The position numbers were made by a program, and so were the translations under genes. DNA of 64,000 bases, taken from NCBI RefSeq assembly GCF_035084215.1, contig NC_090330.1, positions 28,582,001-28,646,000 of the forward strand, read 5' to 3'. Numbering within the stretch: the stretch's first letter is position 1; each line of letters opens with the position of its first letter. Below, one piece after another: positions 14,266-64,000 of this stretch. The notes below the pieces were generated by a model, which saw only the letters and a program-made list of their open reading frames with translations, did not search any database and had not been told where the DNA came from. This stretch comes from Heptranchias perlo (lineage: Eukaryota).

Positions 14266-14281
14266 TATTAGAATGTGTATC

Positions 14282-22390: not shown

Positions 22391-22648
22391 TGTGCCCCTG
22401 TGGGACTTGGTTTATCTGGCCTACTTCAAATAGAGTCCCTTCACCTTATTTGTACAGCTCATATTTCATTTTCCATTGTTATTTGTTATTAATCCAATGA
22501 ACTAATTTGTTATTACTAATATGGACCTTAATCCTCATTCTAATACTCATAGAATTACATGTAAATTACAACACAGAAACAGGCTGTTCGGCCCAACCAG
22601 TCGGTGTTGGTATTTATGCTCCACTGGGGCAGTAACCCTGATCCCGAG

Positions 22649-24418
22649 AGGGTTATATTGGATAACCCCTGAAACCGGGTGTGGGGGTAGTGGTGCGCGA
22701 TTAACCTGCGTCCGGTCATTGAGATGCATGCAGCACATAACATTCGTGCTGCCTGGTAATTTACCTGATTGCTGCGAGCAGCCAGGTCTAGCTGCGCTGT
22801 TGAGTGGCTGCTGCAGGGGGCCCAGATATCTTGTGTGGTTAGCACCACTTAAAGGCACACTGCACCTCTTATTTGCAAAATATAGGATACGGGTCAGCAC
22901 AAAGTCCGAATGGAGATCAGACATCGCACACGTAAAACACAAATGTAGGTCTCTTTCCTATGTTTACAAACTGTGTTATTTTAAAACATTGAATAAAGGT
23001 TGCGCACTACTAAATCCCACATCCTCCAATCTGCATGCTAAACCCCACCAATCTGCTGATCTGAGTTTCTACCGGACTTGCAAGAGCGCATGCACCAAGG
23101 TTCTCTAATGTTGCACTAGAGGCCTTGGTGCAAGTGGTGGACAGAAGGAGGGGCATCCTATATCCGCAGGGAGGGGGGGAGTGGGGTGGGGGGCAAGAAG
23201 CCCTCCAGACATATGCTCCCAAGGCAGTGGGAATTGGCAGGGGATGAAGTCAATGTCAGGCATATAGCACCACCAACATGGATGCTGTGCAGGAAGAAGT
23301 TGCTTTAATGCTTTGACCCGAATGGTCACGATGAGTGAGGTGAAATGTCAAGTAGGATCTCCTACCAACTGCACCTCTAGCAGCATCCACTGCTCCACGC
23401 TCTACATCCCCCATCACCCACTTACCAACAAACTCTTTTAATCAGTACTCAACTCTTCCAATCAGATGCTTCCTCTCACCCTCACACATTACCAATGTTG
23501 CAAGCCGCAGACCCGCAACTCACAGGCCACACACACTGGTAGCTATTCAACTATGACAGGAACATCACCCAAACATCTTGCAGGACATTCACCGACTCAC
23601 GCCCCGCTTTCTTGCAGGAGAAGGTGGCGCATAACAGGAGGCAGCAAGTGGCAGTGGCTCCATAGAACATGAACCTGCTGACCTCTTTCAGGATGACAAT
23701 ATTCCTGTCCCACCCCTGCCACTCCGCCAGTGCCCTTGCTGTTGCCTGTCAGCTAGCCAGCCCATTCCCTGTAGAGTATTGAAACTTTATTATAGGAACA
23801 GGAGTGGACCATTTAACTCCTCGAGCATTCAATGAGATTATGGGTGATCTGTGACCTAACTCCATATACCCGCCTTAGCCCCATTTGGTTTAACCTTATG
23901 GTTAACAAAAATCTATCAATCTCAGATTTAAAATTAGCAAGTGAGCTAGCATCAACTGCCGTTTGCGGACGAGTGTTCCAAACTTCTACTACCCTTTGCG
24001 TGTAGAAGCATTTCCTAACTTCACTCCTGCAAGTTCTGGCTCTAATTTTTAGGCTATGTTCCTTAGTCCTAGTATTCAAGTATAGGAGACCTCCAAAAAC
24101 AGGTACAAATGCATCAGCAGCCAGAAGCAATAATCTAGCAACTAACCTGTAACTCCTGCATGATCCCTTTAAATAGCCCTCGTGGGGTTCCTCCATGCTG
24201 TTCAAGACCTGTTCAGCTATGCAAGGTTAAGACAGTGCATTGGCTGGAGCATTGAGTTCCAAAATCGCATATGTCGCTTTCAATCAGTGTTGCACACTGA
24301 TCTACCACATATTCGCCCTACTTTTCATGGTGCCAGCGTTCATTATCTACGCATGCACAAACGCCTGTACCAAGGTACGCCTACAAAACGGGCGCTGCAC
24401 GTCCCAATTTAGCCCCCC
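22649..24418. mobile_element. Internally deleted Harbinger (Myb remnant +, transposase-side end -)
   Basis: ends gggttatattgg / cccaatttagcccc; APRFSNVALEALV...CRKK remnant at 23080-23335; 24090-24418 is the reverse complement of a relative of 11220-11600. Confidence 0.8.
23792..24073 (-). mobile_element. CR1 3' fragment nested in Harbinger
   Basis: ataggaacaggagt tail; HSLKIRAR...FYTQRVVEVWN. Confidence 0.85.
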
Positions 24419-25695: not shown

Positions 25696-28584
25696 AGATG
25701 AAATTTAACACAGAGCAGTGATTCATTTTGGTAGGAAGAATGTGGAGAGGCAATATAAACTAAATGGTACAATTTTAAAGGTGGCGCAGGATCAGAGAGA
25801 CCTGGGAGTGTACGTACACAAGTTTTTCAAAGTGGCAGGACAAGTTGAGAAGACTGTTTAAAAAGACATAAGGAATCCTTGGCTTTATTAATAGAGGCAT
25901 AGGGCTCGATATTAGGAGGGCGGCAGGTTCGCGGCGGAGGGGCGACCCACGCGCCCGGTGAAATCAGTCTGCCCCGCGCGCGATCGCAGCCTAATTGGAT
26001 CCACTTACCTGGTCTTCCGGGTTCCCCGCTGCTGAGCTGCGCGTCGGGCTGACTGCGCATGCGCAGTAAGGCCTGTCAGCTGGAGGAGCTCTATTTAAAG
26101 GGCAGTCCTCCACTGACTGATGCTGCAAGAAATAGGAAAAATTACAGCATGGAGCAGCCCAGGGGGAAGGCTGCTCCCAGGTTTAATGATGCCTGACTCC
26201 AGGTATCATTGGATGGGGTGAGGAGGAGGGGGAGGACAGAGATCTTCCCCCCAGCGGGCGGGAGGAAGCGGCCTGCCTCTGCCACCAAGAAGGCCTGGCT
26301 TGAGGTGGCAGAGGAGGTCACCTGCACCACCAACATATTGCCCACCTGCATACAGTGCAGGAGGCGCTGCAATGACCTAAGTAGGTCAGCCAAAGTGAGT
26401 ACACTTACTCATTCCCCTACACTCCGTCTGCCACATCACCGCCCCCACCCCACATCTCCTTCTCCACTGCCAACACTACTCTGTCACATCACCCCTCACA
26501 CTCACTCAAACCTCATCCTCATCTTACCTGCACTTACTCACCTCGCCAGTACTCATCCTGCCACTACCACTCAACCCAATCCTCATACAATCTCATGGCT
26601 CTTTCTCATACTCACCCTCTCATGCATCTTTTTCACGGTCAGCCTCATTCAACCTGCCACTACCTGTGCTGCAGCCACAGGGCATGCATCACATATGTGC
26701 AGTAGGAAGCGTATGGCAAACGTGTTGTGAGCATGAAGGGGATGCACAAGGGTGTTTGAGGGTTTGTCATGGTTTTTACTTATATTAATTTCTGACCAAC
26801 TCACATCACATATTATATTGGCACCACTACTGCCACGTCTTTGCGAATCCTGTCTGGTTTGTGCAATAATGCCCTTTCCTGAGGATCACAATGAAGACCC
26901 ACCACTGATGCCACCCATTGTGTCACTGCAGAATGGGTGTAGATGTATTTGCAGGGCTCTTTTGTGCAGACGACTGAGAGACATCGGCGATGTCCCCGGT
27001 GGCACCCTGGAAGGATGCGGAGGAGAAGTTGTTGAGGGCAGTGGTGATTTTGACAGCGACAGGCAAAAAGATGGTGCTCGGGCCAGCCGGGAGCAGCTCG
27101 GCATGAAGAAGGCTGCAGATGTCCACGACTACATGTCGAGTGACTCTGAGCCTCCGTGTGCACTGCTGCTCAGAGAGGTCCAGGAAGCTGAGCCTCGGTC
27201 TGTGGACCCTGTGGCGAGGGTAGTGCCCTCTGCGAAGCATCTCTCTCTGCGGTTGCCCTCCCTTCTGCTGTGCAGGTGGATGTGTCACAGCACTGTGTTG
27301 TGGAGCTCCACGTGTCAGAGGTGGACGGCGTGGCCGGCGAGGCTGGTGATGCTGTTCACCCTCCGAGGAGGTCATGACTGCAACTACGGCGGCCCCCATC
27401 CGGAAGATGTACATCTGAGGGGGTCTGCAAGGTAGGTACATGTGTCTGGACCCCGGGGTAAGTGTGCATGTTGGTGAATTTGATTGTTAGGAGGAGGGTG
27501 GTGGAGGCTAAACTTTGTCCAAAGTGACAGAGTGGCCTCCTGCAATGAGTGAGGGTCTCCCCACCCCCACACCACCTGTCAAATGGACCTTTGCAGCTGC
27601 CACAGGCTGATAGCTGCAACATGTCCATTTCAACTGGGAGCATTTCCCCCAGTACGGGAAACCGTCCCAATTGTTTGTAAAATACCACCCCTCCTGAAAT
27701 ATTCCCTTAATCAGATCTGTTAACGACCTGAAATGCCTACATAAATACTGTCAAGTGGCACCAAGCCGGCTTTAATTGCCTGCGGGAGTCCCACATGCGG
27801 GGGCTGCGCGCGCACGTCAGCGCGTCTGTGGGGAACCCGGAAGTGGGCGGGTTGGAGCCGGGCTCCTGACCCGCTCCGGGATTCCCCGATTTTCGGAGCC
27901 CCCCCCCCCCCCTGCCAGGAATGCACCCGATAGCGGGTGCTAATATCGGGCCCATAGAGCACAAAAGCAAGGAAGTTATGCTAAACCTTTCTAAAACACT
28001 GGTTAGGCTCCAGCTGGAGTATTGTGGCCAATTCTGGACATCACACTTTAGGAAGGATGTCAAGACCTTGGAGAGGGTGCAGAGGAGATGTACTAGAATG
28101 GTACCAGGGATGAAAGACTTCAGTTATGTGGAGATACTGGAGAAACTGGGGTTGTTCTTGGAGCAGAGAAGGTTAAGGGGAAATTTGATAGAGGTGTTCA
28201 AAATCATGAAGGGTTTTGATAGAGTAAATAAGGAGAAACTGTTTCCAGTGGCAAAAGGGTCGGTAACCAGAGGACACAGATTTAAGGTAATTGGCAAAAG
28301 AACCCAGAGGCAATATGAGGATAAAAAATTTTGCGCAACTAGTTGTTATGATCTGGAATGCACTGCCTGATAGGGTGGTGGAAGCAAGTTCAATAATTAA
28401 TAACTTTCAAAAGGGATTTGGATAAATACTTGAAGTAGAAAAATTTGCAGGGCTATGGGGAAAGAGCAGGTGAGTGGGACTAATTAGATAGAATTAATTA
28501 GTTTCTATTAATTCAAAGAGCCGGCACAGGCATGATGGGTCGAAAGGCCTCCTTCTGTGCTGTATCATTCTATGATTCTATGAT
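25696..28584 (+). mobile_element. CR1 LINE 3' part split by Harbinger insertion A
   Basis: ...ggctttattaatagaggcata | gagcacaaaagcaaggaag... continues across 25902-27953; (attctatg) tail. Confidence 0.9.
25902..27953. mobile_element. Non-autonomous Harbinger copy A (subfamily A/D; Myb half +, transposase half -)
   Basis: TIR gggctcgatattag / ctaatatcgggccc; 3-bp TSD ATA. Confidence 0.95.
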
Positions 28585-29324: not shown

Positions 29325-29421
29325 GATCAGCTGCCAGATCCGACCTCCTCAGTCCTGAACTTAGCCTAAGAGCTAAGCAACATGCCATCAGCATTAACCA
29401 GACACTACATGTGACATGCAG
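29325..29421 (+). CDS. flt1: VEGF receptor 1, coding exon 2 (start of Ig domain 1)
   Basis: tttgcag|GA...AG|gtaatt; 97 bp; (G)SAARSDLLSPELSLRAKQHAISINQTLHVTC(R), aligns with human FLT1 GSSSGSKLKDPELSLKGTQHIMQAGQTLHLQCR (recalled). Confidence 0.92.
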
Positions 29422-31190: not shown

Positions 31191-31408
31191 GGGATCATCA
31201 CCAATATCATGGTCTTGGCCAGATCATGTAAATAACGGCACTGAAAGACTAAGTATAATTAACTTTAACAGTGGGGACAACGATAGGCCTTACTGTAGTA
31301 ACCTGACTTTAAGCAAAGCTCAGGCTAAAGACACCGGCTACTATTACTGCAATAGCTCATCTTCAAATGTTCGACAAAAAAAGACTGCAGTCTATATATT
31401 TGTCAAGG
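31191..31408 (+). CDS. flt1: VEGF receptor 1, coding exon 3 (Ig domain 1)
   Basis: ttctacag|G...G|gtaaga; 218 bp; GSSPISWSWPDHVNNGTERLSIINFNSGDNDRPYCSNLTLSKAQAKDTGYYYCNSSSSNVRQKKTAVYIFVK; Ig DTGxYxC motif; phase fits exons 2 and 4. Confidence 0.93.
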
Positions 31409-42194: not shown

Positions 42195-42319
42195 ACAAAC
42201 ACAATCCCTTTGTGGAGCAACACACAGATGTACCCGAAGTTGTGTACATGACCGAAGGAAAGAGGCTACTTATTCCATGCAGGATCACAGCCCCAGATCT
42301 CACTGTCACTTTGAAAATG
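42195..42319 (+). CDS. flt1: VEGF receptor 1, coding exon 4 (Ig domain 2, N-half)
   Basis: tttcag|AC...ATG|gtaggt; 125 bp; DKHNPFVEQHTDVPEVVYMTEGKRLLIPCRITAPDLTVTLKM vs human FLT1 DTGRPFVEMYSEIPEIIHMTEGRELVIPCRVTSPNITVTLKK. Confidence 0.95.
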
Positions 42320-45774: not shown

Positions 45775-47811
45775 GGGCTCGATTTTGGCGTCGGGTTTCC
45801 GGCGGGGGGGCCCCGAAAATCCCGATATCCGGTCACGTGACCGGATCACGACGAAATCCCGGCCACTTCCGGGTACCGCGCTGACGTGCGGGGCTGCGCG
45901 CGCAAGCCCCGCTGGTGGGAATCCCGCAGGCAATTAAAGCCAGCGGGGTTCCACTTGAGAGTACTTACCTTGCTTGTTGAGGTCAGTTAATGAGCTGAAT
46001 CAGCTGTCAAAAGAGGAAGTGTGGGATTTTAGGTTCAAGGCAGTGAGTTTCCCACACTGGGTGAAACAGTCTCTCTCCAACCAAGCGTGTTGCAGCCAGC
46101 AGCCTGTGGCAGGTGCCAAGGTGCACCCCACGGGGGAGAGCCCTCACCCACGCAGGAGGCCACCCCGTCACGTAGGGCAACCCCTGCCCCCCACCACCCC
46201 CCGCCAAGCCAGAGGACAGACCGACACGAAACCGCAGCCCCAGTCCGAGGAACCACCCACCTACCCTGCACAACCCCTCAGACCAACACCTGCCAGATGG
46301 GTGGTGTGTGGACACCCTCGGAGGACGAACAAAATGACCAGCCCCAGCAGCCTCGCAGTCCACGCCGTCCGCCGCAGAGACGTGGAGCCCCCCAACACGG
46401 TGTTGTTGCACGCCCACCTGCACAGCAGGAGGGAGGGCTACCGCAGAGAGAGACGCATCGCAGAGGGCACTACCCTCGCCACAGGGTCCACAGACTGAGG
46501 CGCAGCTCGCCGGACCTCTCCGAGCAGCAGTGCACAGGGAGGCGCAGATTCGCTCGACATGTAGTCATGGAGATCTGCAGGCTCTTTCATGCCGAGCTGC
46601 TCCTGGCTGACCCCAGCACCAACTGCTTACCTGTCGCTGTCAAAGTCACCACTGCCCTCCACACCTTCTCCTCCGCATCCTTCCAGGGTGCAGCCGGCTA
46701 CACCGCCGATGCCTCTCAGTCGTCTGCGCGGACGAGCCCTGCAAATACACCTGCACCTACTCTGCAGTAACACGATGGGTGGCATCAGTGGTGGGTCCTC
46801 ATAGTGATACCCAGGAGCGGGCATTATTGGACACAGCGGACAGGATTCGCGGAGACGTGGCAGTGGTGGTGTCAATATAATGTGTGCTGTTTGTTGCTCT
46901 GAAATTCAATATAGGTAACACCCATGACAAACCCACAGACACCCTTGTGCACCCCCTTCATGCTCACAACACGTTTGCCTTACGCTGCCTACTGCACATA
47001 TGTGATGCATGCCCTGTGGCTGCAGCACAGGTGGTGGCAGGTTGAGTGAGGCTGGCCGTGAGGGAGATGCACGAGAGGGTGAGTATGGGATGGAGCAATG
47101 AGATTGTATGAGGATTGGGTTGCGTGTTAGTGGCAGGATGAGTACTGGCGAGGTGAGTAGGTGGAGGTAAGATGAGGATGGGGTTTGAGTGGGTATGAAG
47201 GGTGATGTGACAGAGTAGTGTTGGCAGTGCCGAAGGAGATGTGGGGTGGGGGCAGTGATGTGGCAGACGGAGTGTAGGGGAAAGACTTCGTGTTCTCACT
47301 GTGGCTGACCTACTGCGGTCATTGAAGCGCCTCCTGCACTGTATGCAGGTGGGCCATATGTTGGTGGCGCAGGTGACCCCCTCTGCCACCTCGAGCCAGG
47401 CCTTCTTGGTGGCAGAGGCAGGCCGCTTCCTCCCGACCGCCGGGTGGAAGATCTGTGTCCTCCCCCTCCTCCTCACCCCATCTGATGATACCTGGGGTGA
47501 GGCATCATTAAACTGGGAGCAGCCTTCCCCCTGGGCTGCTCCATGCTGCAATTTGTTCCATTGGTTGCAGCATCTGTCAGTGGAGGACTGCCCCTTTAAC
47601 TAGAGAGCCTCCAGCTGACAGATCGTACTGCGCATGCGCAGCCCGCTGACGCGCAGGCCAGCGCCGCGGACCACGGAGGAGCAGGTAATTGATTCCTATT
47701 AGTGTGTTGCCTGCTACGATCGCGCGGGCAACCCACTAATTTCTCCGAGCGTGTTGACCACGCTCGAAACCCAACCCGCCGGAAACCCGCAGGCCTGCTA
47801 AAATCAGGCCC
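45775..47811. mobile_element. Non-autonomous Harbinger copy B (subfamily B/C; transposase half +, Myb half -)
   Basis: TIR gggctcgattttggc / gctaaaatcaggccc; TSD AAT. Confidence 0.95.
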
Positions 47812-48877
47812 AATGTGTGTCGCAGTAAAGAGCGGTTACAAGCAACTAAAATTTCTCAGTATATTCAGAGACTATTGTGGCTTGAGAAATATTCTACAAT
47901 TTCAATGCTCTAATAAAGAAAATAATTAGATGACATTTCAACCTTTATTAGAGGCGAACCTGTGGGAACTGAAACTAGCTGGATGAGGAACAGAATGTGT
48001 GGCATTTATTAACATGGAAGGAGAAAAGATGAAAATGTAGATACGATGGGTGAAATTGGATATTATAGGAGGTATAATTTTAATTGCAGATGTTAGATGG
48101 CAAAAAACTAAAAAAGGGAATTTACACTCAATATGAAATGGCTTAAAACAATTAACAAAAAAAAATTAAATGTAAGAGGTGCATTTGTACTCTATACAAA
48201 AGAATTGAGCTCAGCAGTTTTTGATCCACTGATGTTAGAATTGAACTGATCTATAGCAAACAATCAGAGACAAACACTAGTCTAACAGGAAACAAGACTA
48301 CTATTCTAGTGTATTTATTATGCTTTGAGGCACACCATACACAAATATAATCATTTTGTATTTTTTTTACTAATTTATGTCTCAGAAAATTATACCTCCT
48401 CTTTAATATATTTCAAAAAATCTGTACTGTAATAGAAACCATTAATCTTCTGCAAAATGATCAACTTGTAAGTTAGTAAAAGGTTATATTAGGGGGAACA
48501 AACTGAGATGGAAAAGGCCTGAGAGGGGAATGGGTTAAACAAAAGTGCAAAATCTTCCTCTTCAGATAAATCTTTGCGATTTCTCAATGCTGAAAGTTTT
48601 TTTCAAATAGTGACTACCCTGACTGTGGATAAATGCCATGTTGTATTAGTAGACATCCATAAATTAAAAGGAGTGGAAAGTTATTTAAATAGGCTTGCTA
48701 ATGTAGACATAATCTGGTGTATTGTTTGAAACTTTTGGCTTTTTTTTCCCAGCAATTAATGAAATTTGAGGCCATATTTTAATCACCTTCCCATTTCTAC
48801 AGAAATGCTCTTATCAATTTCTTCCCACCCTGAGGTGATTCACTGTAGTAACATAACTTCTGTCTTTGTACTTTTAG

Positions 48878-49037
48878 CATTCCTTATCCTTTACAATTGA
48901 TGGAAAGGAGGTTATGTGGGACAGCAAACGAGGCTTTGTCATTCCCAGACCCACGTACAAATTTATTGGTCTGCTGATGTGCGAAACTACTGTGAATGGG
49001 AAGACTTTTCATTCTTATTATTTAACTCACAGACCAG
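48878..49037 (+). CDS. flt1: VEGF receptor 1, coding exon 5 (Ig domain 2, C-half)
   Basis: cttttag|CAT...G|gtttgt; 160 bp; HSLSFTIDGKEVMWDSKRGFVIPRPTYKFIGLLMCETTVNGKTFHSYYLTHRP; FLT1-type TYKxIGLLxCE and YLTHR motifs. Confidence 0.95.
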
Positions 49038-52000
49038 GTTTGTAGCTGCACTTCCTTTTTTTATTTGCCATTTTTATAACTGGTCTGTGTATATTCATTT
49101 TATTGTATTTTCATATCCACTGAACAATTCTTCGCCAGGCTGACGACTGAATCACAAGTAATGATGTTTGTGCGCTAGATACCTTGTAGTGATATGCTGT
49201 GTGAATGATATTCAAATCCTACATTTAAGTTTTTTAAGACATGTAACATGTCTCTCCTCCTTTCTGATATTTTCCCCCTTCCCTCTCTTACTCCCCCCAT
49301 GCCAGGGTTCATGCCACTCACTAGCTGATAAGATTTGATTTTTGGCTTCTACTGTACTGCTCTTGAATTACCCAGGAGTAGGTGCTCAGGATCAGATTGG
49401 TTGACTTGATCACTTTATTTCCCATCATCTCTGCTTATCGCCTCTTCCTAACAGACCTTCCAGTTTACCCTCATTTTTAGGAATGACACCCTCAAAACTG
49501 TGATTTCTGAATAACCAGTCTATTTTTTTTCTACATTCATCTGACTATTTAGAGCATTGGTATATTTTGTTTCAAACATTTGTGATGCTCCAAAGCTTTC
49601 GGGGACCCAAAGCAGACAATGAATTCCTGGCCAATTTGACTGTACCTGGCACCTTCGATGCTTGGCTGTGTATTCACATTCATAAAATTTACCTCAGATT
49701 TTCCATAATAATACATAGTATTTACAGCACAGCAATAGGCCATTCGGGCCAGCAAATCTATGCTCCTCACGAACCTCCTCTCACCTTACTTCATCTCACC
49801 CTTTCAGCATTTCAATTTGGAAGGCCTACACTGACATCATAACTAAGGTTGCCTTGCATAAATCACACCACTCAGAATGTTGCAGCACTGGTCTGCTGTG
49901 CAGGACATCACTGGGCCATCACTGGAACAGTTAGATTTGTAAACATTTCAGTTCTATGCTTGTAAGAATTTGAATATTTTTAGAATTAATTAATTTCATT
50001 CTTTAAAGTGCATCTGACCTGTTAATTAAGGTTATATATTTGCCAAACATTTTATACAAATATTAGCTTTCAGAGGCAGAAAGTAGCATTCTTACACTCA
50101 GTTTTAATGACTCTCAAGTGTTGGAGATCTTTCTGAGGTAATTTATTTAACATTAATCTTCAGAATATTATTGTGAATACCGTTTCAATGCCTGTCATGC
50201 CTTAAGTTGGTGCTTTTCTTTTTCCTGTCTTTCCCGTCTTAGTGTTCTGACCTAAAGACGGCCACTCATGCTGGAGTATGACTCTGCAGCTTACTGTGGC
50301 TCTACAGTATAATTATGACTTAAAACATCATAATGATGAGTCAGCAGAAACACAAAAACATCTTTTTGTATGATGACTATGAATTTGTAGCCCATGGGAT
50401 TGACAGTAAGCAGAAGCTAAGAGCAAATTAGTGGCTGCAGTTTCTACATTGGAGAACTATTTTTATTTCAAATCTCTCCAGCAGCTCATTCTGTTTAAGT
50501 TGATCTTATAGCACTACCTTCTAGTTGTTGTGAAGCCATATTTAGCCCAGCCCTTATAACTTTTAAAATACGCATGATTTCTCTCAGACCATATTTATGG
50601 TACTGACTGGTTGTGAATTTCTAATGCTGATTTTTAAAAAATAAGTATGCTCACCTACCCGCTTCGCGCCCCCCCCCCCCCCCCCCCCGCCCCACTCCGG
50701 TCATGCATCGGTCTAGAGGCTGAGACGGTCTCCTGTCAGGTTCTGTCACTGTAACCAGTTGCTCAAAGGTTAGCAACAGCTTACCAATTGACTCACCCTC
50801 TGATTTTCTCACAGTCTGTTGCTGGTGAGAAAAAAATATGCATCTCTACAGTATGTTCTTGTACTGCTTTTCACTTAGATGTGCAATAATTATAAATCTT
50901 GTATATATTTATATTTGAGTAGCAAATTCATGAGGCAGTTTGTTTCACTCTTAATTCCAATACGGACTAGTAAACATGCTTTTTCATTGTGAGACATATC
51001 TATACTCTATACACTGCAAGAAAATGTATCTTTTTGAATTTTGATTTGAAGTAGAAATCTTAATTTTTAAAAATAATTCCCCTTTCAAAGATGAATTACA
51101 AAAATATGTTTAATTTTAATACCTTTTTGTTTTTCTGTCCATTTTGTCAATTTCCTTAGAATATTTTGCGTTAAATATTGAGTATTAATGATGTCACTAG
51201 CTTGGAGTCATTCCACAGTGTGATTGAGAGGAATTAATGTCAGCATAGATGTCATTACTTGTGGTGTTTCAGTAAACTAGTATTTACAACTGTGTGTGTT
51301 AAAGGAATACTCCATAATAAGCCTATATGGCAGCCCACAATACTCTATCAAAACATTCTCCCATTTAAAAATGATCTTTTAGCTAAGATTTGGAATAAAA
51401 ATTAGTTTAATAAATGTAGTCACTAATAGTGCCTTTTAGATTGGAGCTGTCATTTAGGGGAATCCCCAAAAAAGCATGCGACTAATCCATTTTTTACAAA
51501 ATTAAAGCATAGTGGGCTGGGCAGTCTCACCTGATCTCTCTTTACCATTGTGGATGCAGTCCAAGAATGAAGATTGCAGTCTTAAGACATTTGCTTGTTT
51601 TGTATCATTTTGTATCATTGCAGAATTGTAAAGTGGATATATTAATCAATATATTTGAATAAACCTTTACTGTTGCTATATGCAGAGTGTTAATTGTATC
51701 CATGTGATTCATATCAATTAGTGTTAATTGCATTTAGGTGGTGCGTATCAATTGGGAACGCTCTTGTATCCATTTATAAGAGAGCTGATTTTTTAAATAT
51801 TTGTTCATGGGATGTGGACGTCGTTGGCAAGGCCAGCATTTATTGCCCATCCCTAATTGCCCTTGAGAAGGTGGTGGTGAGCCGCCTTCTTGAACCGCTG
51901 CAGTCCGTGTCTGGAGTGATCCAATGTGGCTCTCTGTGAATAAAAGCTTGGAAGCAATTGAAAACCAGGCTCTAGTATTCTATCCTTCACCACTTGGCTA

Positions 52001-52116
52001 TCCAATTTATAACATAGAGCAAAAATGCTCTATTCTGTTGCTTTGATTCAGTCTATTCCTTAAGGCGCATAAGAGAAAACAGATGTAAAGGCTTGTGGCG
52101 GCCTGAACAATGTTCA

Positions 52117-53838
52117 ATATCATAGTAGGTACAGCACAAGAGGAGGCCATTCAGCCCATTGTGCATGTGCCAGTTCTTTGAAAGAGCTATCCAATTAGTC
52201 CCATTCCCCTGCTTTTCCCCATAGCCCTCTAAATTATTTCCCTTCAAGTACTTATCCATTTCGCTTTTGAAAGTTACTAATGAATCTGCTTCCACCATCC
52301 TTTCAGGCAGTGCATTCCTGATCATGACAACTCGCTGCATAAAAAAATGTTTCCTAATGTTGCCTCTGGTTCTTTGCCGATTACCTTAAATCTGTGTCCT
52401 CTGGTTACCGACCCTTTTGCCACTGGAAACAGTTTCTCCTTATTTACTCTGTCAAAACCATTCATGATTTTGAAAACCTCTATCAAATCTTCCCTTAACC
52501 TTCTCTGTTCTAAGGAGAACAACCCCAGCTTCCCCAATCCCTCCACTTAACTGAAGTCCCTCATTCCTGGTACCATTCTAGTGAATCTCTTCTGCGCCCT
52601 CTCTAAGGCCTTAACATCTTTCCGAAAGTGTGTGCCCAGAATTGAATACATTACTCCAGCTGCGGCCTAACGAGTGTTTTATAAAGGATTAGCATAACTT
52701 CCTTGCTTTTGTACTCTATACTTCCATTAATAAAGCCCAGGATCCCATATGCTTTTTTAACAGCCTTTCTTTTATTCATTCATGGGATGTGGGCGTCGCT
52801 GGCAAGGCCAACATTTATTGCCCATCCCTAATTGCCCTTGAGAAGGTGGTGGTGAGCCGCCTTCTTGAACTGCTGCAGTCCGTGTGGTGAAGGTTCTCCC
52901 AGCTGTTAGGTAGGGAGTTCCAGGATTTTGATCCAGCGATGATGAAGAAACGGCGATATATTTCCAAATCAGGATGGTGTGTGACTTGGAGGGGAACTTG
53001 CAGGTGGTGGTGTTCCCATGTGCCTGCTGTCCTTGTCCTTCTAGGTGGTAGAGGTCGCGGGTTTGGGAGGTGCTATTGAAGAAGCCTTGGCGAGTTGCTG
53101 CAGTGCATCTTGTAGATGGTGCGCTGATAGTGAAGGGAGTGAATGTTTAAGGTGGTGAATGGGGTGCTAATCAAGTGGGCTGCTTTGTCCTGGATGGTGT
53201 CGAGCTTCTTGTGTTGTTGGAGCTGCACTCATCCAGGTAAGTGGAAAGTATTCCATCACTCTCCTGACTTGTGCCTTGTAGATGGTGGAAAGGCTTTGGG
53301 GAGCCAGGAGGTGAGTCACTCGATACAGAATTCCCAGTCTCTGACCTGCTCTTGTAGCCACAGTATTTATGTGGCTGGTCTCGTTTAGTTTCTGGTCAGT
53401 GGTGACCCCCCCAGGATGTTGATGGTGGGGGATTTGGCGATGGTAATACTATTGAATGTCATGGGGAGTTGGTTAGACTCTCTCTTGTTAGAGATGGTGA
53501 TTGCCTGGCACTTGTCTGATGCGAATGTTACTTGCCACTTATCAGCCCAAGCCTGGATGTTGTCCAGGTCTTGCTGCATGTGGGCACGGACTGTTTCATT
53601 ATCTGAGGGGTTGCGAATGGAACTGAACACTGTGCAATCATCAGTGAACATCCCCACTTCTGACCTTATGGTGGAGGGAAGGTCATTGATGAAGCAGTTG
53701 AAGATGTCTGGGCCTAGGACACTGCCCAACGAGTCCTACCACCTTCAAAGATTTGTGTACATACACCTGCAGTTCTCTCTGTTCCTGCACCCCCTTTAAA
53801 ATTGTACCATTTAGTTTATATTGTCTCTCCTCATTCTC
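52117..53838 (-). mobile_element. CR1 LINE 3' part interrupted by a second LINE
   Basis: LGLFSLEQRRLREDLIEVFK; host resumes at ~53728 (cctaccaccttcaaagatttg). Confidence 0.9.
52771..53727 (-). mobile_element. Second-family CR1-group LINE nested in CR1
   Basis: GSVLGPDIFNCFINDLP, MFTDDCT, YKAQVRRVMEY; (atgaatgaat) tail. Confidence 0.9.
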
Positions 53839-53983
53839 TGGTTTAAACTAATAGCTGGGAAACTTTAAAATGCTATTTTATTACATTAATAACTTAAACT
53901 AGATAAACTAATTAGTTAATAAAACTAAAAATAATCTAGTGAATAAAAACTTTAACTAATTAAATAAACAAGGTTAGATTGGG

Positions 53984-54198
53984 ATGGCAGGGCAGGTGGT
54001 GTGTCATAATTGCAGCATATGTGAGTTTGTGAAGACCAGCGAGATCCTGAGCAACCACATCTGCAGTAAGTATCTGCAGCTCGAGGAACCTCGGTTCAGA
54101 GTTGTTGGGCTGGAGTCCGAGCTGCAGACATTGCGATGCATCAGCGAGGGGGAGAGTTATCTGGACACTTTGTTCCAGGAAGCAGTTACACCCCTTGG
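53984..54198 (+). pseudogene. CR1 ORF1 N-terminus (zinc finger + leucine zipper), with probable 5' UTR from ~53840
   Basis: MAGQVVCHNCSICE...HICSKYLQLEE...LESELQTLRCISEGESYLDTLFQEAVTP. Confidence 0.75.
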
Positions 54199-54516
54199 AG
54201 TAGTGGGGAGAAACTCCATTGAATATAATCAGCAATGGAGGAGAGGTGCTAGGAATTTTAGGGTGGCGGTGACACAAGTTCTGCAATTGATAAATACATA
54301 AATCTGCTATTTAAACAAAGTTAGAACTATTGTGTAACACAGCTTAACATGTAAATGTGCTATATCATAAGTTACTGGGGTAATTCATATTCAGTTAATT
54401 TATAAAATAATAGAATAAAACTTGCTTGTATATAGAACAATGTGAAGCAATGCATACTCTGCCTAGTATCCAGATGTCTGACTTTTTTTACAATCTTAAT
54501 TTTTTTTAAAATTTAG

Positions 54517-54653
54517 TCAGCAGGATCAACAATGTACAGCTCAATGTGACCAATCCAGTCAAGATGCTGAGTGGAAAATCACTCGCTATCAAGTGCACAG
54601 TGACTGCAGAACTGAATTCAAGAGTTGAGATTCTCTGGGACTTCCCTGGCAAA
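54517..54653 (+). CDS. flt1: VEGF receptor 1, coding exon 6 (Ig domain 3, N-half)
   Basis: atttag|TC...AAA|gtaagt; 137 bp; VSRINNVQLNVTNPVKMLSGKSLAIKCTVTAELNSRVEILWDFPGK. Confidence 0.93.
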
Positions 54654-55941
54654 GTAAGTGTCTTAAGCAGGATACATACTTCAAAGGCATTGAAAGACAA
54701 AGTCTGGTTGATAACTCAGCCTTTGTTTCTGGGTCTCTCCCTTGCCCTTCAGAATTACCAGGAAATGTTGAAAGATGTTGCACTTTAAGTTCAAAGTATG
54801 AATAATTTGGATTGGCAGAGAGCATGGAAACTGAAAAAATATTGCACTGCCTTTAATTTCACATTTCTAAATCTTTGCACAGTGACATTCCTCCATAGTT
54901 TTAAAACAACACAAAATCTATTCAAAAATAACAGACTGCTGAAGAAGTGCAAAATAACATTAGATAAATTTAAACATAGTGAAAAAAGTATGCAGAACAA
55001 CCTTAAAAATACTTCCACATTCCTATTACTCTCTGAATAAGGTAGAAATGCAACCTTGCTATTCTTTTTTTGGTAAAAATACAAGTAAAAATAAATTATA
55101 TATTTTAAGTACAAACTTTTTAAATTGAGTTCCCTCTCTTACCCCCCCCCCCCCCCCCACCACAGACCACCGCCAAAACAAATAAATATTTAGGAGAAGC
55201 AATTTGAAGTTCCTTTCATGGCTTTTGCTTTACTGTAAAGATCTAGCCATTTGTTGGAAATCTATCATGTTACAGGTATTAGACACATTCTTTTGTAATG
55301 CAGTGATCCCTGAGATTACATTTGTTTCAACACATTCATGTAAAACACTGTCAGGTAAAAACACTCCCAGACTGGGTATATTTTGGAAAAGTTGTTATAA
55401 TGCCATTAATCAGGTTCTCATTTATAAAATGCCAGAAAGAACATTTTTTTGGGATAATGATGAGGGAAGGATTATTCTCACTATATTTCTCAAGTGAAAA
55501 AGCTGCAGAACGACTACTCAACATCACGAATGATTTGTCTGTCATACTGTATGGAAAATGTGCTACACAAAACATTTTTCTAATTTTGTTTTTATTTTAG
55601 GAACTTGGTTGAGTACAAATCATCATAGAAACAGCCTAATCTAAAACTCATATTTCCCCCCTCCCTTCCTGTTGAAATCAATGTGAAGAACATTATGAAT
55701 TGCTCCACAGGAAAAGGGTATTGTGTGTGCGGTACCCGTTGAGTGTAACAAATTATATTTCATGTACTATGGGAAAATGTGTAGTGGATTAAATTTGTTC
55801 AAACAAATGAGTCCTATACTAAATTAAAAGCAAATCCTATACTACACGAATTTAAAAAGAAAAAGTTTTGTACATTATGCAAGTAAAGCTGTGAAATAAA
55901 ATATGTTGTATTAGTACTCTGTTTTTGTATAATAACACACT

Positions 55942-57999
55942 GGGCTCGATTTTACCAGGCCTGCGGGTTTCCGGCGGGTTGGGTTTCGGGAGCGTGGTTA
56001 ACACGCTCGGCGAAATTAGTGGGTTGCCCGCGCGATCGTAGCAGGCAACACACTAATAGGAATCAATTACCTGCTCCTCCGGGTTCCGCGCCGCTGGTCT
56101 GCGCGTCGGGCGGGCTGCGCATGCGCATGCGCAGTACGATCTGTCAGCTGGAGGCTCTCTAGTTAAAGGGGCAGTCCTCCACTGACAGATGCTGCAACCA
56201 ATGGAACAAATTGCAGCATGGAGCAGCCCAGGGGGAAGGCTGCTCCCAGTTTAATGATGCCTCACCCCAGGTATCATCAGATGGGGTGAGGAGGAGGGGG
56301 AGGACAGAGATCTTCCCCCCGGCGGGCGGGAGGAAGTGGCCTGCCTCTGCCACCAAGAAGGCCTGGCTCGAGGTGGCAGAGGGGGTCACCTGCGCCACCA
56401 ACATATGGCCCACCTGCATACAGTGCAGGAGGCGCTGCAATGACCGCAGTAGGTCAGCCACAGTGAGAACACAAAGTCTTTCCCCTACACTCCGTCTGCC
56501 ACAACACTGCCCCCACCCCACATCTCCTTCGGCACCGCCAACACTACACTGTCACATCACCCTTCATACCCACTCAAACCCCATCCTCATCTTACCTCCA
56601 CCTACTCACCTCGCCAGTACTCATCCTGCCACTAACACGCAACCCAATCCTCATACAATCTCATGGCTCCATCCCATACTCACCCTCTCGTGCATCTCCC
56701 TCACGGCCAGCCTCACTCAACCTGCCACCACCTGTGCTGCAGCCACAGGGCATGCATCACATATGTGCAGTAGGCAGCATAAGGCAAACGTGTCGTGAGC
56801 ATGAAGGGGGTGCACAAGGGTGTCTGAGGGTTTGCCATGGGTGTCACCTATATTGAATTTCAGAGCAACAAACATCACACATTATATTGGCACCACCACT
56901 GCCATGTCTCCGCGAATCCTGTCCGTTGTGTCCAATAATGCCCGCTCCTGGGTATCACTATGAGGACCCACCACTGATGCCACCCATCGTGTTACTGCAG
57001 AGTAGGTGCAGGTGTATTTGCAGGGCTCTTCTGCGCAGACGACTGAGAGACATCCGAGGTGTACCCGGCTGCACCCTGGAAGGATGCGGAGGAGAGGTTG
57101 TGGAGGGCAGTGGTGACTTTGACAGCGACAGGTAGGCAGTTGGTGCTGGGGCCAGCCAGGAGCAGCTCGGCATGAAAGAGGCTGCAGATCTCGACGACTA
57201 CATGTCGAGCGAATCTGCGCCTCCGTGTGCACTGCTGCTCGGAGAGGTCCAGGGAGCTGTGCCTCGGTCTGTGGACCCTGTGGCGAGGGTAGTGCCCTCT
57301 GCGATGCGTCTCTCTCTGCGGTAGCCCTCCCTCTAGCTGTGCAGGTGGGCGTGCAACAACACCATGTTGGGGGGCTCCACGTCTCTGCGGTGGACGGCGT
57401 GGACTGCGAGGCTGCTGGGGCTGGTCATGCTGTTTGTCCTCCGAGGGTGTCCATGCACCACCCATCTGGCAGGTGTTGGTCTGAGGGGTTGTGCAGGGTA
57501 GGTGGGTGGTTCCTCGGACTGGGGCTGCGGTTTCGTGTCGGTCTGTCCTCTGGCTTGTCGGGGGGTGGTGGGGGGCAGGGGTTGCCCTATGTGCCGCGGT
57601 GGCCTCCTGCGTGGGTGAGGGCTCTCCCCCGTGGAGTGCACCTTGGCACCTGCCACAGGCTGCTGGCTGCAACACACCTGGTTGGAGGGAGACTGTTTCC
57701 CCCAGTGTGTGAAACACTCTGCGATGCAGGTAAAATCCCACACTTCCTCTTTTGACAGCTGATTCAGCTCATTAACTTACCTCAACAAGCAAGGTAAGTA
57801 CTCTCAAGTGGAACCCCGCTGGCTTTAATTGCCTGCGGGATTCCCACCAGCGGAGGTCACGCACGCAGCCCCGCACGTCATCGGGGAACCCGGAAGTGGT
57901 CGGGATCGCGGCGCGATCCGGTCACGTGACCGCATATCGGGATTTTCGGGGCCCCCCCCGCTGGAAACCCGCAGGAAACCCGACCCTAAAATCGAGCCC
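55942..57999. mobile_element. Non-autonomous Harbinger copy C (subfamily B/C; Myb half +, transposase half -)
   Basis: TIR gggctcgatttta / taaaatcgagccc; TSD ACT; near-identical inverted copy of B. Confidence 0.95.
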
Positions 58000-58413: not shown

Positions 58414-59445
58414 GGGGGTAAATTTTAACCCCACAAACAGGTGAATTGGGGGTGGCTGGGAAGGTAAAAATTGTAAAAAAACTAAAACCTACCTTCAACC
58501 TGCCCACTTCCGGTTTTGACGGAGGTGGATCGAGGGGCAGGCGACCAATCCGGAGGCGGGTTGAGGGGCGGGAGACGAACCCGCTCTTCGGAGGTAGGTC
58601 GGTCATTGACAGCTTTTAAGGAGACTGCAGGACTCCATGTTGTCAGCTTTTTTATTTTTAACTCCTGGGGGCTGGGATTCCCGGCCTTCTGCTTCACGCC
58701 ACATGAGAGGAGGCGAGAAGGCCCAAAACAGCACGTAAGTGGCTTTATTGCACTGCTTGTGGACCCAGAGGACTCGGAGTGCCTTCCCCAGGCTCAACAA
58801 GCCTACCTGCCACGATCCCACACACGCGATTGACCGAACCCCTCCCCCCCCCCCGACGATCTCCGACCCCTCCCCCCGACGATCTCCGACCCCTCCCCCC
58901 CGACGATCTCCGACCCCTCCCCCCCGACGATCTCCGACCCCTCCCCCCCGACGATCTCCGACCCCTCCCCCCCGACGATCTCCGACCCCTCCCCCCCGAC
59001 GATCTCCGACCCCTCCCCCCCGACGATCTCCGACCCCTCCCCCCCGACGATCTCCGACCCCTCCCCCCCGACGATCTCCGACACCCCCCACCGACTATCT
59101 CCGACACCGACCTCCCCCCGTCGATCAGCTAACCCGGCCCCTCCACCCCCGACGATCTCTAACTCCGACCTTCCCCTGACGATACCCGACCCCGACACCC
59201 CCCTCCCCGCCCCCTCGCCCATCTAAGACTTGCCTGCTAGCACCCGCTCCCTGGCTGTTCTCCCGTCCGACTGATGGCCAGCCTGTCAATCTGGCTGGCC
59301 TGTTGAATGGGAAACCTACAAAAAAAACGAAAGATGTCCTTACATCAAAATTGTACGGATATCCGGGAACCCGTATTTCGGGGCTTCAGATCAGGAAATC
59401 CGCCCCCACCACCCTCTTCCCGGCTGCTGGTTAAAATTTACCCCC
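58414..59445. mobile_element. MITE with 17-bp perfect TIR, Harbinger-related
   Basis: gggggtaaattttaacc / ggttaaaatttaccccc; TSD not resolved. Confidence 0.85.
58851..59200. repeat. 24-bp minisatellite (GACGATCTCCGACCCCTCCCCCCC) x10 plus ~4 degenerate units
   Basis: direct count of units starting 58855-59070. Confidence 0.95.
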
Positions 59446-59567: not shown

Positions 59568-61610
59568 GGGCTAGATTTTCGCACCCGCGATCAGGTGCGT
59601 TCGTAGCAGGGGGCTGCGAAAATAGGGGATTCCCGGGGTGGGCCGGGAGCCCGGCTCCAACCCGCCCATTTCCGGTTTTCCACTGACGCGCTCACATGTG
59701 CGCGCAGCCCCCGCATGTGGGACTCCCGTCGGCAATTAAAGCCGGCGGGGTGCCACTTAAAGTACTTGAACAAGTACTTCAGGTTGTTTACAGACCTGAT
59801 TGACCTGTTATTTTAGCAGGGATGGGATTTTGCAACTGACTGAGACTGTTTCCCGTACTGGGGGAAACACTCCCAGTTCAAATGGACGTGTTGCAGCCAT
59901 CAGCCTGTGGCAGCTGCAAAGGTCCATTTGACAGGTGGGGGGGGGCGGGGGGAGACCCTCACTCATTGCAGGAGGCCACTCTGTCACTTTGGACAAAGTT
60001 TGGCCTCCACCACCCTCCTCCTAACAACAAAATTCACCAACTTGCACACTTACCCCGGTGTCCAGACATATTTAACTACCTTGCAGACCCTCTCAGATAT
60101 ACATCTTGCGGATGGGGGCCGCCGTAGCTGCAGTCATGACCTCCTCGGAGGGTGAACAGCATCACCAGCCTCGCCAGCCACGCTGTCCACCTCTGACACA
60201 TGGAGCTCCACAACACAGTACTGTGATACATCCACCTGCACAGCAGGAGGGAGGGCAACCGCAGAGAGAGAGATGCGTCGCAGAGGGCACTACCCTCGCC
60301 ACAGGGTCCACAGACCAAGGCTCAGCTTCCTGGACCTCTCTGAGCAGCAGTGCACACGGAGGCTCAGAGTCACTCGACATGTAGTCGTGGACATCTGCAG
60401 CCTCCTTCATGCCAAGCTGCTCCCAGCTGGCCCGAGCACCATCTTCTTACCTGTCGCTGTCAAAGTCACCACTGCCCTCAACAACTTCTCCTCCACATCC
60501 TTCCAGGGTGCCACCGGGGACATCGCCGACGTCTCTCAGTCGTCTGCACAAAAGAGCCCTGCAAATACACCTACACCCACTCTGCAGTGACACAATGGGT
60601 GGCATCAGTTGTGGGTCTTCATTGTGATCCTCAGGAAAGGGCATTATTGCACAAACCAGACAAGATTCGCAAAGACGTGGCAGTAGTGGTGCCAATATAA
60701 TATGTAATGTGAGTTGATCAGAAATTAAATATAAGTAAAAACCATGACAAACCCTCAAACACCCTTGTGCATCCCCTTCATGCTCACAACACGTTTGCCT
60801 TACACTTCCTACTGCACATATGTGATGCATGCCCTGTGGCTGCAGCACAGGTGGAGGCAGGTTGAGTGAGGCTGACTGTGAAAGAGATGCATGAGAGGGT
60901 GAGTATGAGATAAAGCCATGAGATTGTATGAGGATTGGGTTGAGTTGTAGTGGCAGGATGAGTATTGCGAGGTGAGTAAGTGCAGGTAAGATGAGGATGA
61001 GGTTTGAGTGGGTGTGAGGAGTGATGTGACAGAGTAGTGTTGGCTGTGCAGAAGGAGATGTGGGGTGGCGGCGGTGATGTGGCAGACGGAGTGTAGGGGA
61101 ATAAGTAAGTGTACTCACTTTGGCTGACCTACTTAGGTCATTGGAGCGCCTCCTGCACTGTATGCAGGTGGGCGATATGTTGGTGGTGCAGGTGACCTCC
61201 TCTGCCACCTCGAGCCAGGCCTTCTTGGTGGCAGAGGCAGGCCGCTTCCTCCCGCCCGCCGGGGGGAAGATCTCTGTCCTCCCCCTCCTCCTCACCCCAT
61301 CCAATAAGAGCTGGAGTGAGGCATCATTAAACCTGGGAGCAGCCTTCCCCCTGGGCTGCTCCATGCTTTAATTTTTTCTATTTCTTGCAGCATCAGTCAG
61401 TGGAGGACTGCCCTTTTAAATAGGGCTCCTCCAGCTGACAGACCTTACTGCGCATGCGTAGTCCGCCCGCCGCGCAGCTTAGCAGCAGGGAACCCGGAAG
61501 AACAATCAGCCTGCGATTGCGTGCGGGGCAGACTGATTTCACCGGGCACGTTACCCACGCGCCCAATCGACCCCCCGTCGCGAATCCGCCGCCATGGTAA
61601 TATCAGGCCC
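59568..61610. mobile_element. Non-autonomous Harbinger copy D (subfamily A/D; transposase half +, Myb half -)
   Basis: TIR gggctagatttt / aatatcaggccc; TSD TAT; inverted relative of A. Confidence 0.95.
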
Positions 61611-61929
61611 TATGTGTTTGTATTTTGATTGAGGTTTTAGCACAACCCCACTCCCCCAAATGATTCACTGATTCACACATTCTTACTTGAAAAACAGCCA
61701 TTTGGGTGAAACGACAAACAAAACACTGCAGATGCTGGAAATCTGAAACAAAAACAGAAGATGCTGGAAACACTGTGCACAGAAGAGTAGAAATCTATCC
61801 TGTTGGCAGAGATGGGATTTCTGCATTGGTTTCACTTTTATTATTGACAAGATAAACAATAATCAATAATTGGCTGAATCTACAGGCTAGTTATATACAA
61901 GCCCAATCACTTCTATCTGTGTGTTTCAG

Positions 61930-62104
61930 GGAAACAGAAGCACTTCCATAACGAATAGAATTGACCAGACAGATCCTGGGATAAATACATTCTACAGCAT
62001 CCTTGTTATAGATGAGGTGCTTAGATCTGACAAAGGGAACTACATATGTCAAGTGAAAAGTGGGGAAACAGTGAAAAAAAGGAAAGCAACGGTCAATGTT
62101 TATG
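61930..62104 (+). CDS. flt1: VEGF receptor 1, coding exon 7 (Ig domain 3, C-half)
   Basis: gtttcag|GGA...G|gtaaga; 175 bp; GNRSTSITNRIDQTDPGINTFYSILVIDEVLRSDKGNYICQVKSGETVKKRKATVNVY vs human RIDQSNSHANIFYSVLTIDKMQNKDKGLYTCRVRSG. Confidence 0.95.
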
Positions 62105-63032: not shown

Positions 63033-64000
63033 GTAAGAACATAAGAACATAAGAAATAGGAGCAGGAGTAGGCCAATCGGCCCCTCGAGCCTGCTCCACC
63101 ATTCAATAAGATCATGGCTGATCTGATCCTAACCTCAAATCTAAATTCATGTCCAATTTCCTGCCCGCTCCCCGTAACCCCTAATTCCCTTTACTTCTAG
63201 GAAACTGTCTATTTCTGTTTTAAATTTATTTAATGATGTAGCTTCCACAGCTTCCTGGGGCAGCAAATTCCATAGACCTACTACCCTCTGAGTGAAGAAG
63301 TTTCTCCTCATCTCAGTTTTGAAAGAGCAGCCCCTTATTCTAAGATTATGCCCCCTAGTTCTAGTTTCACCCATCCTTGGGAACATCCTTACCGCATCCA
63401 CCCGATCAAGCCCCTTCACAATCTTATATGTTTCAATAAGATTGTCTCTCATTCTTCTGAACTCCAATGAGTAGAGTCCCAATCTACTCAACCTCTCCTC
63501 ATATGTCCACCCCCTCATCCCCGGGATTAACCGAGTGAACCTTCTTTGTACTGCCTCGAGAGCAAGTATGTCTTTTCTTAAGTATGGAGACCAAAACTGT
63601 ATGCAGTATTCCAGGTGCGGTCTCACCAATACCTTATATAACTGCAGCAATACCTCTCTGTTTTTATATTCTATCCCCCGAGCAATAAAAGCCAACATTC
63701 CGTTGGCCTTCTTGATCACCTGCTGCACCTGCAAACTAACTTTTTGATTTTCTTGCACTAGGACCCCCAGATCCCTTTGTACTGCAGTACTTTCCAGTTG
63801 CTCGCCATTAAGATAATAACTTGCTCTCTGATTTTTCCTGCCAAAGTGCATAACCTCACATTTTCCAATATTGTATTGCATCTGCCAAATCTCCGCCCAC
63901 TCACCCAGCCTGTCTGTATCCCCTTGTAGGTTTTTTATGTCCTCCTCTCTCTCTACTTTCCCTCCCATCTTTGTATCATCTGCAAACTTTGATATGTTAC
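63033..64000 (-). mobile_element. Young CR1 LINE 3' part with uninterrupted ORF2 C-terminus, running off the window
   Basis: open frame 63147-63968 (273 aa), [13 protein letters not shown]; (taagaaca)n tail. Confidence 0.95.

What the first reader, a model, noticed from the sequence alone, without database searches (positions are those of the whole stretch)
45775..57999. Inverted 2-kb Harbinger pair brackets frame-symmetric flt1 exons 5-6: predicted stop-free circRNA and hybrid-Ig skip isoform
Seen: copies B (intron 4) and C (intron 6) are near-identical and inverted. Between them lie only exons 5 and 6 (160+137=297 nt), which start and end in phase 0. Established: inverted intronic repeats promote back-splicing, exon skipping and ADAR editing. 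Inference: an exon 6->5 circle would have an endless open frame with internal ATGs (EVM, LLM, VKM). The linear skip product would join exon 4 (B-strand Cys, IPC) in frame to exon 7 (F-strand Cys, YIC), making one chimeric D2/D3 Ig domain that lacks the YLTHR VEGF-contact region. A DNA transposon could thus create a ligand-blind VEGFR1 isoform.
Basis: partly seen in the sequence, partly recalled or inferred. Interest (0 to 1): 0.7.

Follow-up and report, generated by a model that had tools for sequence, protein, structure and literature searches.

The report
Inverted transposon pair in shark VEGFR1
Two independently inserted, oppositely oriented copies of a very common jumping DNA element sit in the introns around two exons of a shark blood-vessel growth-factor receptor gene; they are predicted to pair in the unspliced RNA and would likely give at most a low-level circular or shortened by-product, and the RNA seen shows only the normal message.

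Summary
B (45775-47811) and C (55942-57999) are inverted 2-kb non-autonomous Harbinger copies, 94.5% identical. They bracket flt1 (VEGFR1) exons 5-6, which are 297 nt, phase 0/0, with a stop-free circular frame.

The layout looks like chance. B and C belong to sister subfamilies, each has closer relatives elsewhere (96-98%), and they share no private changes. The family has at least 5,136 copies, so about 40-150 such close inverted pairs are expected, and one control pair is 94% identical. The frame symmetry predates the insertions: three VEGFR paralogs share it.

Against: contigs from four likely-RNA runs (one sample) show only normal splicing through exons 5-7, and no annotated shark or ray VEGFR1 lacks these exons. 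Contigs drop rare forms, so a low-level circle or skip stays open.

The mechanism is known (TBXT Alu pair, laccase2), and this scan noted the same layout in other genomes. Verdict: ordinary layout; ligand-blind isoform unshown.

The parts
45775..47811 (+). Copy B: 2,037-bp internally deleted non-autonomous Harbinger in flt1 intron 4; short TIRs, TSD AAT; remnants of transposase (N-terminal part) and Myb-like gene
   Evidence: 39 other copies at 97-98% listed
55942..57999 (-). Copy C: 2,058-bp sister-subfamily copy in intron 6, inverted to B; TSD ACT
   Evidence: 39 other copies at 96-98% listed
42195..42319 (+). flt1 exon 4 (aa 126-167 of P0001; first half of Ig domain 2, B-strand Cys154; ends phase 0)
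48878..49037 (+). flt1 exon 5 (aa 168-220; second half of D2, Cys202, YLTHR; phase 0 to 1)
54517..54653 (+). flt1 exon 6 (aa 221-266; first half of D3, Cys247, Trp261; phase 1 to 0)
61930..62104 (+). flt1 exon 7 (aa 267-324; second half of D3, Cys306; starts phase 0)
59568..61610 (+). Copy D: older related subfamily in intron 6, inverted to C (80.6%, 1,568 nt away); competing same-intron pairing partner; TSD TAT
25902..27953 (-). Copy A in intron 1, inverted to B (80.3%) and D (90.8%); TSD ATA
29325..29421 (+). flt1 exon 2
31191..31408 (+). flt1 exon 3 (D1)

Best explanation
B and C are two separate insertions of an abundant non-autonomous Harbinger family that likely landed by chance in opposite orientation around flt1 exons 5-6; they are predicted to pair in the nascent RNA and would likely yield only a low-level, unselected back-spliced or skipped by-product, while the contigs examined show the normal spliced message. 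Shown: element identity, separate TSDs, sister-subfamily origin, family abundance, ancestral frame symmetry, canonical splicing in one sample. Inferred: pairing in vivo, ADAR editing, trace circle or skip, and rapid turnover of any protein made from them.
For: Each copy has its own 3-bp TSD. B and C are not among each other's top 40 matches and fall in different clades. B-C identity (95.5%) is close to the mean between their subfamilies (96.2%). They share 0 private changes (control pairs mean 0.5); B carries 1 and C 2 of 46 diagnostic sites of the other subfamily. Family size by exact patterns: 1,819, 5,136 and 15,431. Poisson expectation is 41 inverted pairs 2-12 kb apart for N=5,136; 3 inverted and 2 direct close pairs among the first 100 listed places scale to about 154. 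8 of 8 opposite-strand neighbours picked on C1 are true 1.5-2.1-kb inverted pairs, one at 94.0%. flt1 introns hold 57 inverted pairs bracketing 33 exon blocks, 9 frame-symmetric. 3 of 3 paralogs have 0/0 exon 5-6 blocks. One contig runs unbroken across both ends of exons 5-6 in X1, X2 and X3 (depth 41.6, 27.8, 9.9); exon 6 adjoins exon 7 in X1 and X4. 44 of 45 cluster proteins cover all 99 residues; the 45th is a 53-aa kinase fragment.
Against: B-C is the strongest inverted pair within 15 kb in the whole gene (bit score 3218, next 576 among exon-bracketing pairs). Its predicted duplex (1,946 WC + 22 GU pairs, -4,384 kcal/mol) beats C-D (-3,004) and A-B (-3,097), and B is transcribed before D. 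A 297-bp inverted sequence was enough to cause exon skipping in mouse Tbxt (PMC10901737 passages), so a strong effect is physically plausible. The RNA test is weak: one sample, RNA status guessed, library unknown, contigs drop rare forms, 29 joints and 409 loose ends not displayed, the X4 contig breaks inside exon 5, and it is unknown whether the RNA donor carries B and C.
Confidence: 0.75

Rival explanations
1. The pair drives an abundant exon 6-5 circular RNA that poly(A)-selected or contig data miss; it might be translated into a cytosolic repeat protein that is quickly degraded.
For: Very strong predicted duplex close to both splice sites. Stop-free frame with three ATGs. Inverted intronic repeats promote back-splicing (PMC6769675 passages). 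Rolling-circle products of endogenous circRNAs are reported, mostly at low abundance and unstable (10.1101/473207 passages).
Against: No back-splice joint displayed and main contigs unbroken in 3 of 4 runs. All three ATGs lack G at +4. The frame has no signal peptide. Same-intron partner D competes; most detected duplexes in human cells lie within one intron (78.9%, PMC13019944 section 4 part 1).
Confidence: 0.15
2. One reading: loop-out skipping makes a stable receptor with one chimeric D2/D3 Ig domain that cannot bind VEGF and acts as a ligand-blind or dominant-negative isoform.
For: The join is in frame. Both junctions fall just after the C strand (D3 from the model; D2 inferred from Cys154/Leu165), so the halves are roughly in register, with a Cys-Cys spacing of 53 against 48 (D2) and 59 (D3). 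Two of four contact segments lie in exons 5-6, one straddles the exon 4/5 junction and one stays in exon 4. PDGFRA lacking exons 8-9 is an in-frame Ig-region deletion that gives a signalling receptor (PMC5147052 passages).
Against: No skip path in X1 or X4 at the exon 7 start, although a minor intron-retention branch survived in X5 (depth 12.5 vs 22.6). No such isoform among 44 proteins. The hybrid loses both invariant tryptophans (Trp181, Trp261); D2 and D3 align only weakly (26% over 77 columns, probability 3.6%). The PDGFRA precedent is constitutively active, not a silent decoy. No sign of selection on the pair.
Confidence: 0.05
3. The pair matters at the DNA level: ectopic recombination between B and C inverts the 8.1-kb segment and gives an allele that always skips exons 5-6.
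For: 2-kb inverted repeats at 95% identity, 8,130 nt apart; that such repeats can recombine is established knowledge (recalled).
Against: Both TSD pairs are intact and the exons are in sense orientation. No mosaic or conversion tract.
Confidence: 0.03

Closest known systems
TBXT AluY-AluSx1 inverted pair (PMC10901737; passages seen)
   Same: Two intronic transposon copies in opposite orientation around an in-frame skippable unit of a developmental gene
   Different: There the skip isoform is detected and depends on both Alus. Here none is seen, the arms are 2-kb DNA-transposon copies 8.1 kb apart (1,448 bp in TBXT), and two exons lie in the loop
Genome-wide inverted-Alu loop-out skipping (PMC13019027, abstract and section 20; PMC13019944, abstract and section 4 part 1)
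   Same: Same predicted mechanism; a statistical tendency, with 232,493 Alu pairs also flanking constitutive exons
   Different: Different repeat class and lineage; no duplex or skipping data for this locus
Drosophila laccase2 circRNA and ADAR-antagonised back-splicing (PMC6769675 review passages; that the repeats are DNAREP1_DM is recalled and also named in scan notes)
   Same: Intronic inverted repeats flanking circularisable exons
   Different: The laccase2 circle is abundant and demonstrated; the flt1 circle is only predicted
PIF/Harbinger non-autonomous elements such as zebrafish Harbinger3N_DR (PMC2836001 passages)
   Same: Two-gene parent (DDE transposase plus Myb-like protein), 3-bp TSD, extended target preference
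   Different: 2-kb internal-deletion derivatives that keep gene remnants; a shark family; mobility not tested
PDGFRA lacking exons 8-9 (PMC5147052 passages)
   Same: In-frame loss of two exons in the Ig region of a related receptor kinase
   Different: A tumour-associated deletion in the dimerisation domains that activates signalling; here the ligand-binding domains, and not observed

Membership tests
PIF/Harbinger (non-autonomous derivative) | 3-bp target-site duplication | tested here: met
   B AAT, C ACT; 27 of 30 B-type loci and 12 of 14 C-type loci; 35 of 43 with a cruder end-caller
PIF/Harbinger (non-autonomous derivative) | Short terminal inverted repeats | tested here: met
   C 13 of 13 terminal bases match; B 12 of the first 15
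PIF/Harbinger (non-autonomous derivative) | Derived from a two-gene element: DDE_Tnp_4 transposase plus Myb/SANT protein | tested here: met
   A 4,183-bp relative in flt1 intron 27 (L086) has DDE_Tnp_4 E=1.5e-34 and Myb_DNA-bind_5 E=7e-9. B and C match both proteins by tblastn (E<=1e-33) and lack the DDE core. Direct Pfam scans of 8 ORFs of A-D found nothing
PIF/Harbinger (non-autonomous derivative) | Extended palindromic target preference | tested here: met
   Flanks of 43 copies favour CAGACAC-NNN-GTGTCTG, top base 37-63 of 86 per position
Inverted-repeat-driven circRNA locus | Reverse-complementary repeats in both flanking introns | tested here: met
Inverted-repeat-driven circRNA locus | Back-splice junction detected | tested here: inconclusive
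   None displayed in 4 runs of one sample; contigs only, library unknown, 29 joints hidden
Inverted-repeat-driven circRNA locus | A-to-I editing in the arms | not tested
Loop-out exon skipping (TBXT type) | Skip isoform expressed | tested here: inconclusive
   Exon 6 adjoins exon 7 in 2 of 2 same-species runs laid on exon 7; no protein lacks the block, 0 of 44; rare forms undetectable
Loop-out exon skipping (TBXT type) | Skipping depends on both repeats | not testable with these tools
   Needs deletion alleles or minigenes; no related genomes are held
VEGFR1 (flt1) | Best match to VEGFR1 over VEGFR2/3 and full exon chain | tested here: met
   PDB: E=4e-15 VEGFR1 vs 4e-7 VEGFR2 for exon 5; 100% identity to a protein NCBI labels VEGFR1; exon chain mapped

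The most novel reading that the evidence does not exclude
Two young Harbinger insertions force skipping of exons 5-6 in some vascular tissue or stage of this shark, producing a folded VEGFR1 with a chimeric D2/D3 Ig domain that no longer traps VEGF. This would be a DNA-transposon-made, lineage-specific change in the main VEGF decoy receptor, with a stop-free circle as its partner product.
Probability: 0.04. Interest if true: 0.65.

Novelty: new member of a known kind. Interest (0 to 1): 0.2.

Why it matters
If the skip form were real and stable, it would extend the TBXT-type mechanism from Alu in primates to DNA transposons in cartilaginous fish. It would also show a new Ig domain made by splicing halves of neighbouring domains, and would change VEGF decoy dosage (VEGFR1 acts as a decoy; PMC7765180 passages). 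On present evidence it is one of tens to hundreds of such pairs in this genome. It is a clean test locus for whether 2-kb duplexes affect splicing in sharks, not a demonstrated new function.

Tried and rejected
1. Local duplication or gene conversion between B and C: rejected (separate TSDs, separate clades, 0 shared private changes).
2. Frame symmetry as a special feature: rejected.
3. Structure model: AlphaFold on P0019 with 19 sequences gave mean pLDDT 54 and failed on D2 (residues 123-230 below 50). Only its D3 strands were used, and no fold search was run. The hybrid domain was not modelled, so its folding is open.
4. Profile alignment of D2 with D3 was too weak to fix the register.
5. 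Pfam on 8 ORFs inside A-D: no hits; identity rests on the longer relative.
6. Run search: no RNA holder listed on record; all 18 runs are guessed RNA. 6 of 18 were laid (X1-X6).
7. The A>G/T>C differences lie in multi-copy repeats of intron 5 at depths above 15,000 and were not taken as editing.
8. No single stretch holding both exon 4 and exon 7 was laid, so the skip test rests on contig continuity; exon 4 upstream of exon 5 is inferred from unbroken contigs.
9. In X5 exon 7 is a separate 175-nt contig and its upstream partners are not all displayed; in X6 the contig is unbroken but its upstream exon was not identified.
10. Literature: searches (listings only) showed no FLT1 isoform lacking exons 5-6 and no shark flt1 circle; a bovine circFLT1 paper (PMC7554329) is retracted and was seen as a listing only. 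No supplements were read; circRNA catalogues in supplements could list a mammalian FLT1 exon 5-6 circle.
Full report
Gene and exons. The window holds introns 1-7 of flt1 (VEGFR1). Exons 5 and 7 match VEGFR1 best among solved structures. Exon 7 is 100% identical to P0001, which NCBI labels VEGFR1 of the shark Heptranchias perlo. Mapping P0001 on the window plus 200 kb on each side gives exon 4 at 42195-42319, exon 5 at 48878-49037, exon 6 at 54517-54653 and exon 7 at 61930-62104. Exons 5+6 are 297 nt, phase 0 to 0. The circle has no stop in frame 0 and three in-frame ATGs, none with G at +4.

The repeats. B (45775-47811) and C (55942-57999) are inverted and 94.5% identical. Each has short terminal repeats and its own 3-bp duplication. 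Both match the transposase N-terminus and the Myb-like protein of a 4,183-bp two-gene relative in flt1 intron 27 and lack the DDE core. Flanks of 43 copies show a palindromic target preference. These features fit PIF/Harbinger as described in PMC2836001 (passages). Two older relatives, A in intron 1 and D in intron 6, are about 80% identical to B and C.

Is the pair special? B and C each have 39 listed relatives at 96-98% elsewhere, and neither is in the other's top 40. They sit in sister clades whose mean cross-identity (96.2%) is close to their own 95.5%. They share no private changes, and intact duplications exclude a past inversion. Exact patterns count 1,819, 5,136 and 15,431 copies at increasing breadth. 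With 5,136 copies, 41 inverted pairs 2-12 kb apart are expected; the first 100 listed places hold 3 inverted and 2 direct close pairs, which scales to about 154 (wide error). I fetched 8 opposite-strand neighbours from those lists: all 8 are true inverted pairs, at 82-94%. I did not check whether they bracket exons. Within flt1, 57 inverted intronic pairs bracket 33 exon blocks, 9 of them frame-symmetric.

Is the frame symmetry special? No. 16 of 28 two-exon blocks of this gene are symmetric. Three VEGFR paralogs on C1, C14 and C15 have the same 0-1-0 phases, with blocks of 309, 300 or 306 (two candidate acceptors) and 300 nt, and no such pair around them. An endless circular frame follows automatically from any symmetric coding block.

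B-C is by far the strongest exon-bracketing inverted pair within 15 kb in the gene. The alignment-derived duplex has 1,968 pairs and -4,384 kcal/mol, against -3,004 for C-D and -3,097 for A-B; these values ignore loop cost and kinetics. B ends 1,066 nt before exon 5 and C starts 1,288 nt after exon 6. B exists before D is transcribed, so B-C should form first if intron 4 is still unspliced (inference). Much shorter inverted sequences cause skipping in TBXT (PMC10901737 passages) and are enriched around skipped exons (PMC13019027; PMC13019944), though many also flank constitutive exons.

RNA. The run search listed 18 runs, all only guessed to be RNA. X1-X4 (one sample) match the exons without differences. 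The exon 5-6 joint is present in 4 of 4. In X1, X2 and X3 one contig (depth 41.6, 27.8, 9.9) runs 772, 767 and 204 nt upstream of exon 5 and more than 1,600 nt past exon 6 without a break; the X4 contig ends 38 nt inside exon 5. On exon 7, X1 and X4 show exon 6 directly adjoining. A surviving skip or back-splice path would break these contigs; in X5, another species, an intron-retention branch at about half the exon depth did survive. Limits: single-copy k-mers are dropped and graphs simplified (PMC12424806 passages); 29 joints and 409 loose ends and 148 loose ends were not displayed; poly(A) libraries would miss circles (recalled); the donor's genotype at B and C is unknown. So a major skip form in this sample is unlikely, and a minor one is untested. 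Among 45 cluster proteins, 44 cover all 99 residues and the other is a kinase fragment; these are annotation models.

The hypothetical protein. Human VEGFR1 D2 contacts ligand through segments 139-147, 171-175, 199-204 and 219-226 (PMC2911289 passages). By the alignment (shark Arg219 = human Arg224), two segments fall in exons 5-6, one straddles the exon 4/5 junction and one stays in exon 4, so ligand loss is likely if the form exists. The halves are roughly in register, but the hybrid loses both invariant tryptophans and D2 and D3 align only weakly, so misfolding is at least as likely (inference). The model failed on D2. PDGFRA lacking exons 8-9 shows that such in-frame deletions can give a working receptor, but an activated one (PMC5147052 passages). 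A circle-derived protein would lack a signal peptide; rolling-circle products are reported to be unstable (10.1101/473207 passages).

Comparison and verdict. It works like an inverted-repeat-bracketed exon block of the TBXT or laccase2 kind; membership as a circRNA or skipping locus is not shown. The scan recorded the same layout in other genomes, mostly without RNA support (unchecked notes), and Harbinger activity elsewhere in this genome. Searches listed no FLT1 form lacking exons 5-6. Best explanation: chance inverted insertions with at most trace by-products, confidence 0.75. Novelty: new member of a known kind. Interest 0.2; the ligand-blind isoform has probability about 0.04.

Noticed in passing
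L086:292-4474 (flt1 intron 27): 4,183-bp two-gene Harbinger with terminal repeats, TSD CAT, a 441-aa transposase frame and a Myb-like frame; 82% identical to the left half of B. Whether its catalytic residues are intact was not checked.
   Followed up: partly
window 11639-16467: Decayed two-gene Harbinger (DDE_Tnp_4 and Myb hits); the 1-kb stretch 14801-15809 is 98.7% identical to 22489-23498.
   Followed up: partly
window 63034-64000 continuing into L046, and about 87680-89388 in extended window coordinates (L048): 1.7-kb inverted pair of CR1-like LINE sequence at 96.7% brackets exons 8-10 (not frame-symmetric); the second copy interrupts a Harbinger-like relic.
   Followed up: no
extended window 68390-69318 and 70536-71471 (L046, intron 8): 948-nt inverted pair, 94.7% identical, 1.2 kb apart within one intron; a likely editing substrate.
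   Followed up: no
window 58819-59140: 24-nt GC-rich tandem array between C and D in intron 6.
   Followed up: no
window 25902-27953 and 59568-61610: A and D form an outer inverted pair (90.8%) nested around B-C and bracket exons 2-6, which is not frame-symmetric.
   Followed up: partly
L087:847-5900: Two family copies 94.0% identical, inverted and under 1 kb apart on C1.
   Followed up: partly
window 61869-61959, run X5: A contig from another species crosses the intron 6/exon 7 boundary (intron retention or pre-mRNA); the intron end is conserved (4 differences in 91 nt).
   Followed up: no
L002 and L022 or L010 flanks: Some family copies share the same flanking bases (L002 and L022 nearly identical at both ends), suggesting repeated insertion into a repeat or duplicated segments.
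   Followed up: no
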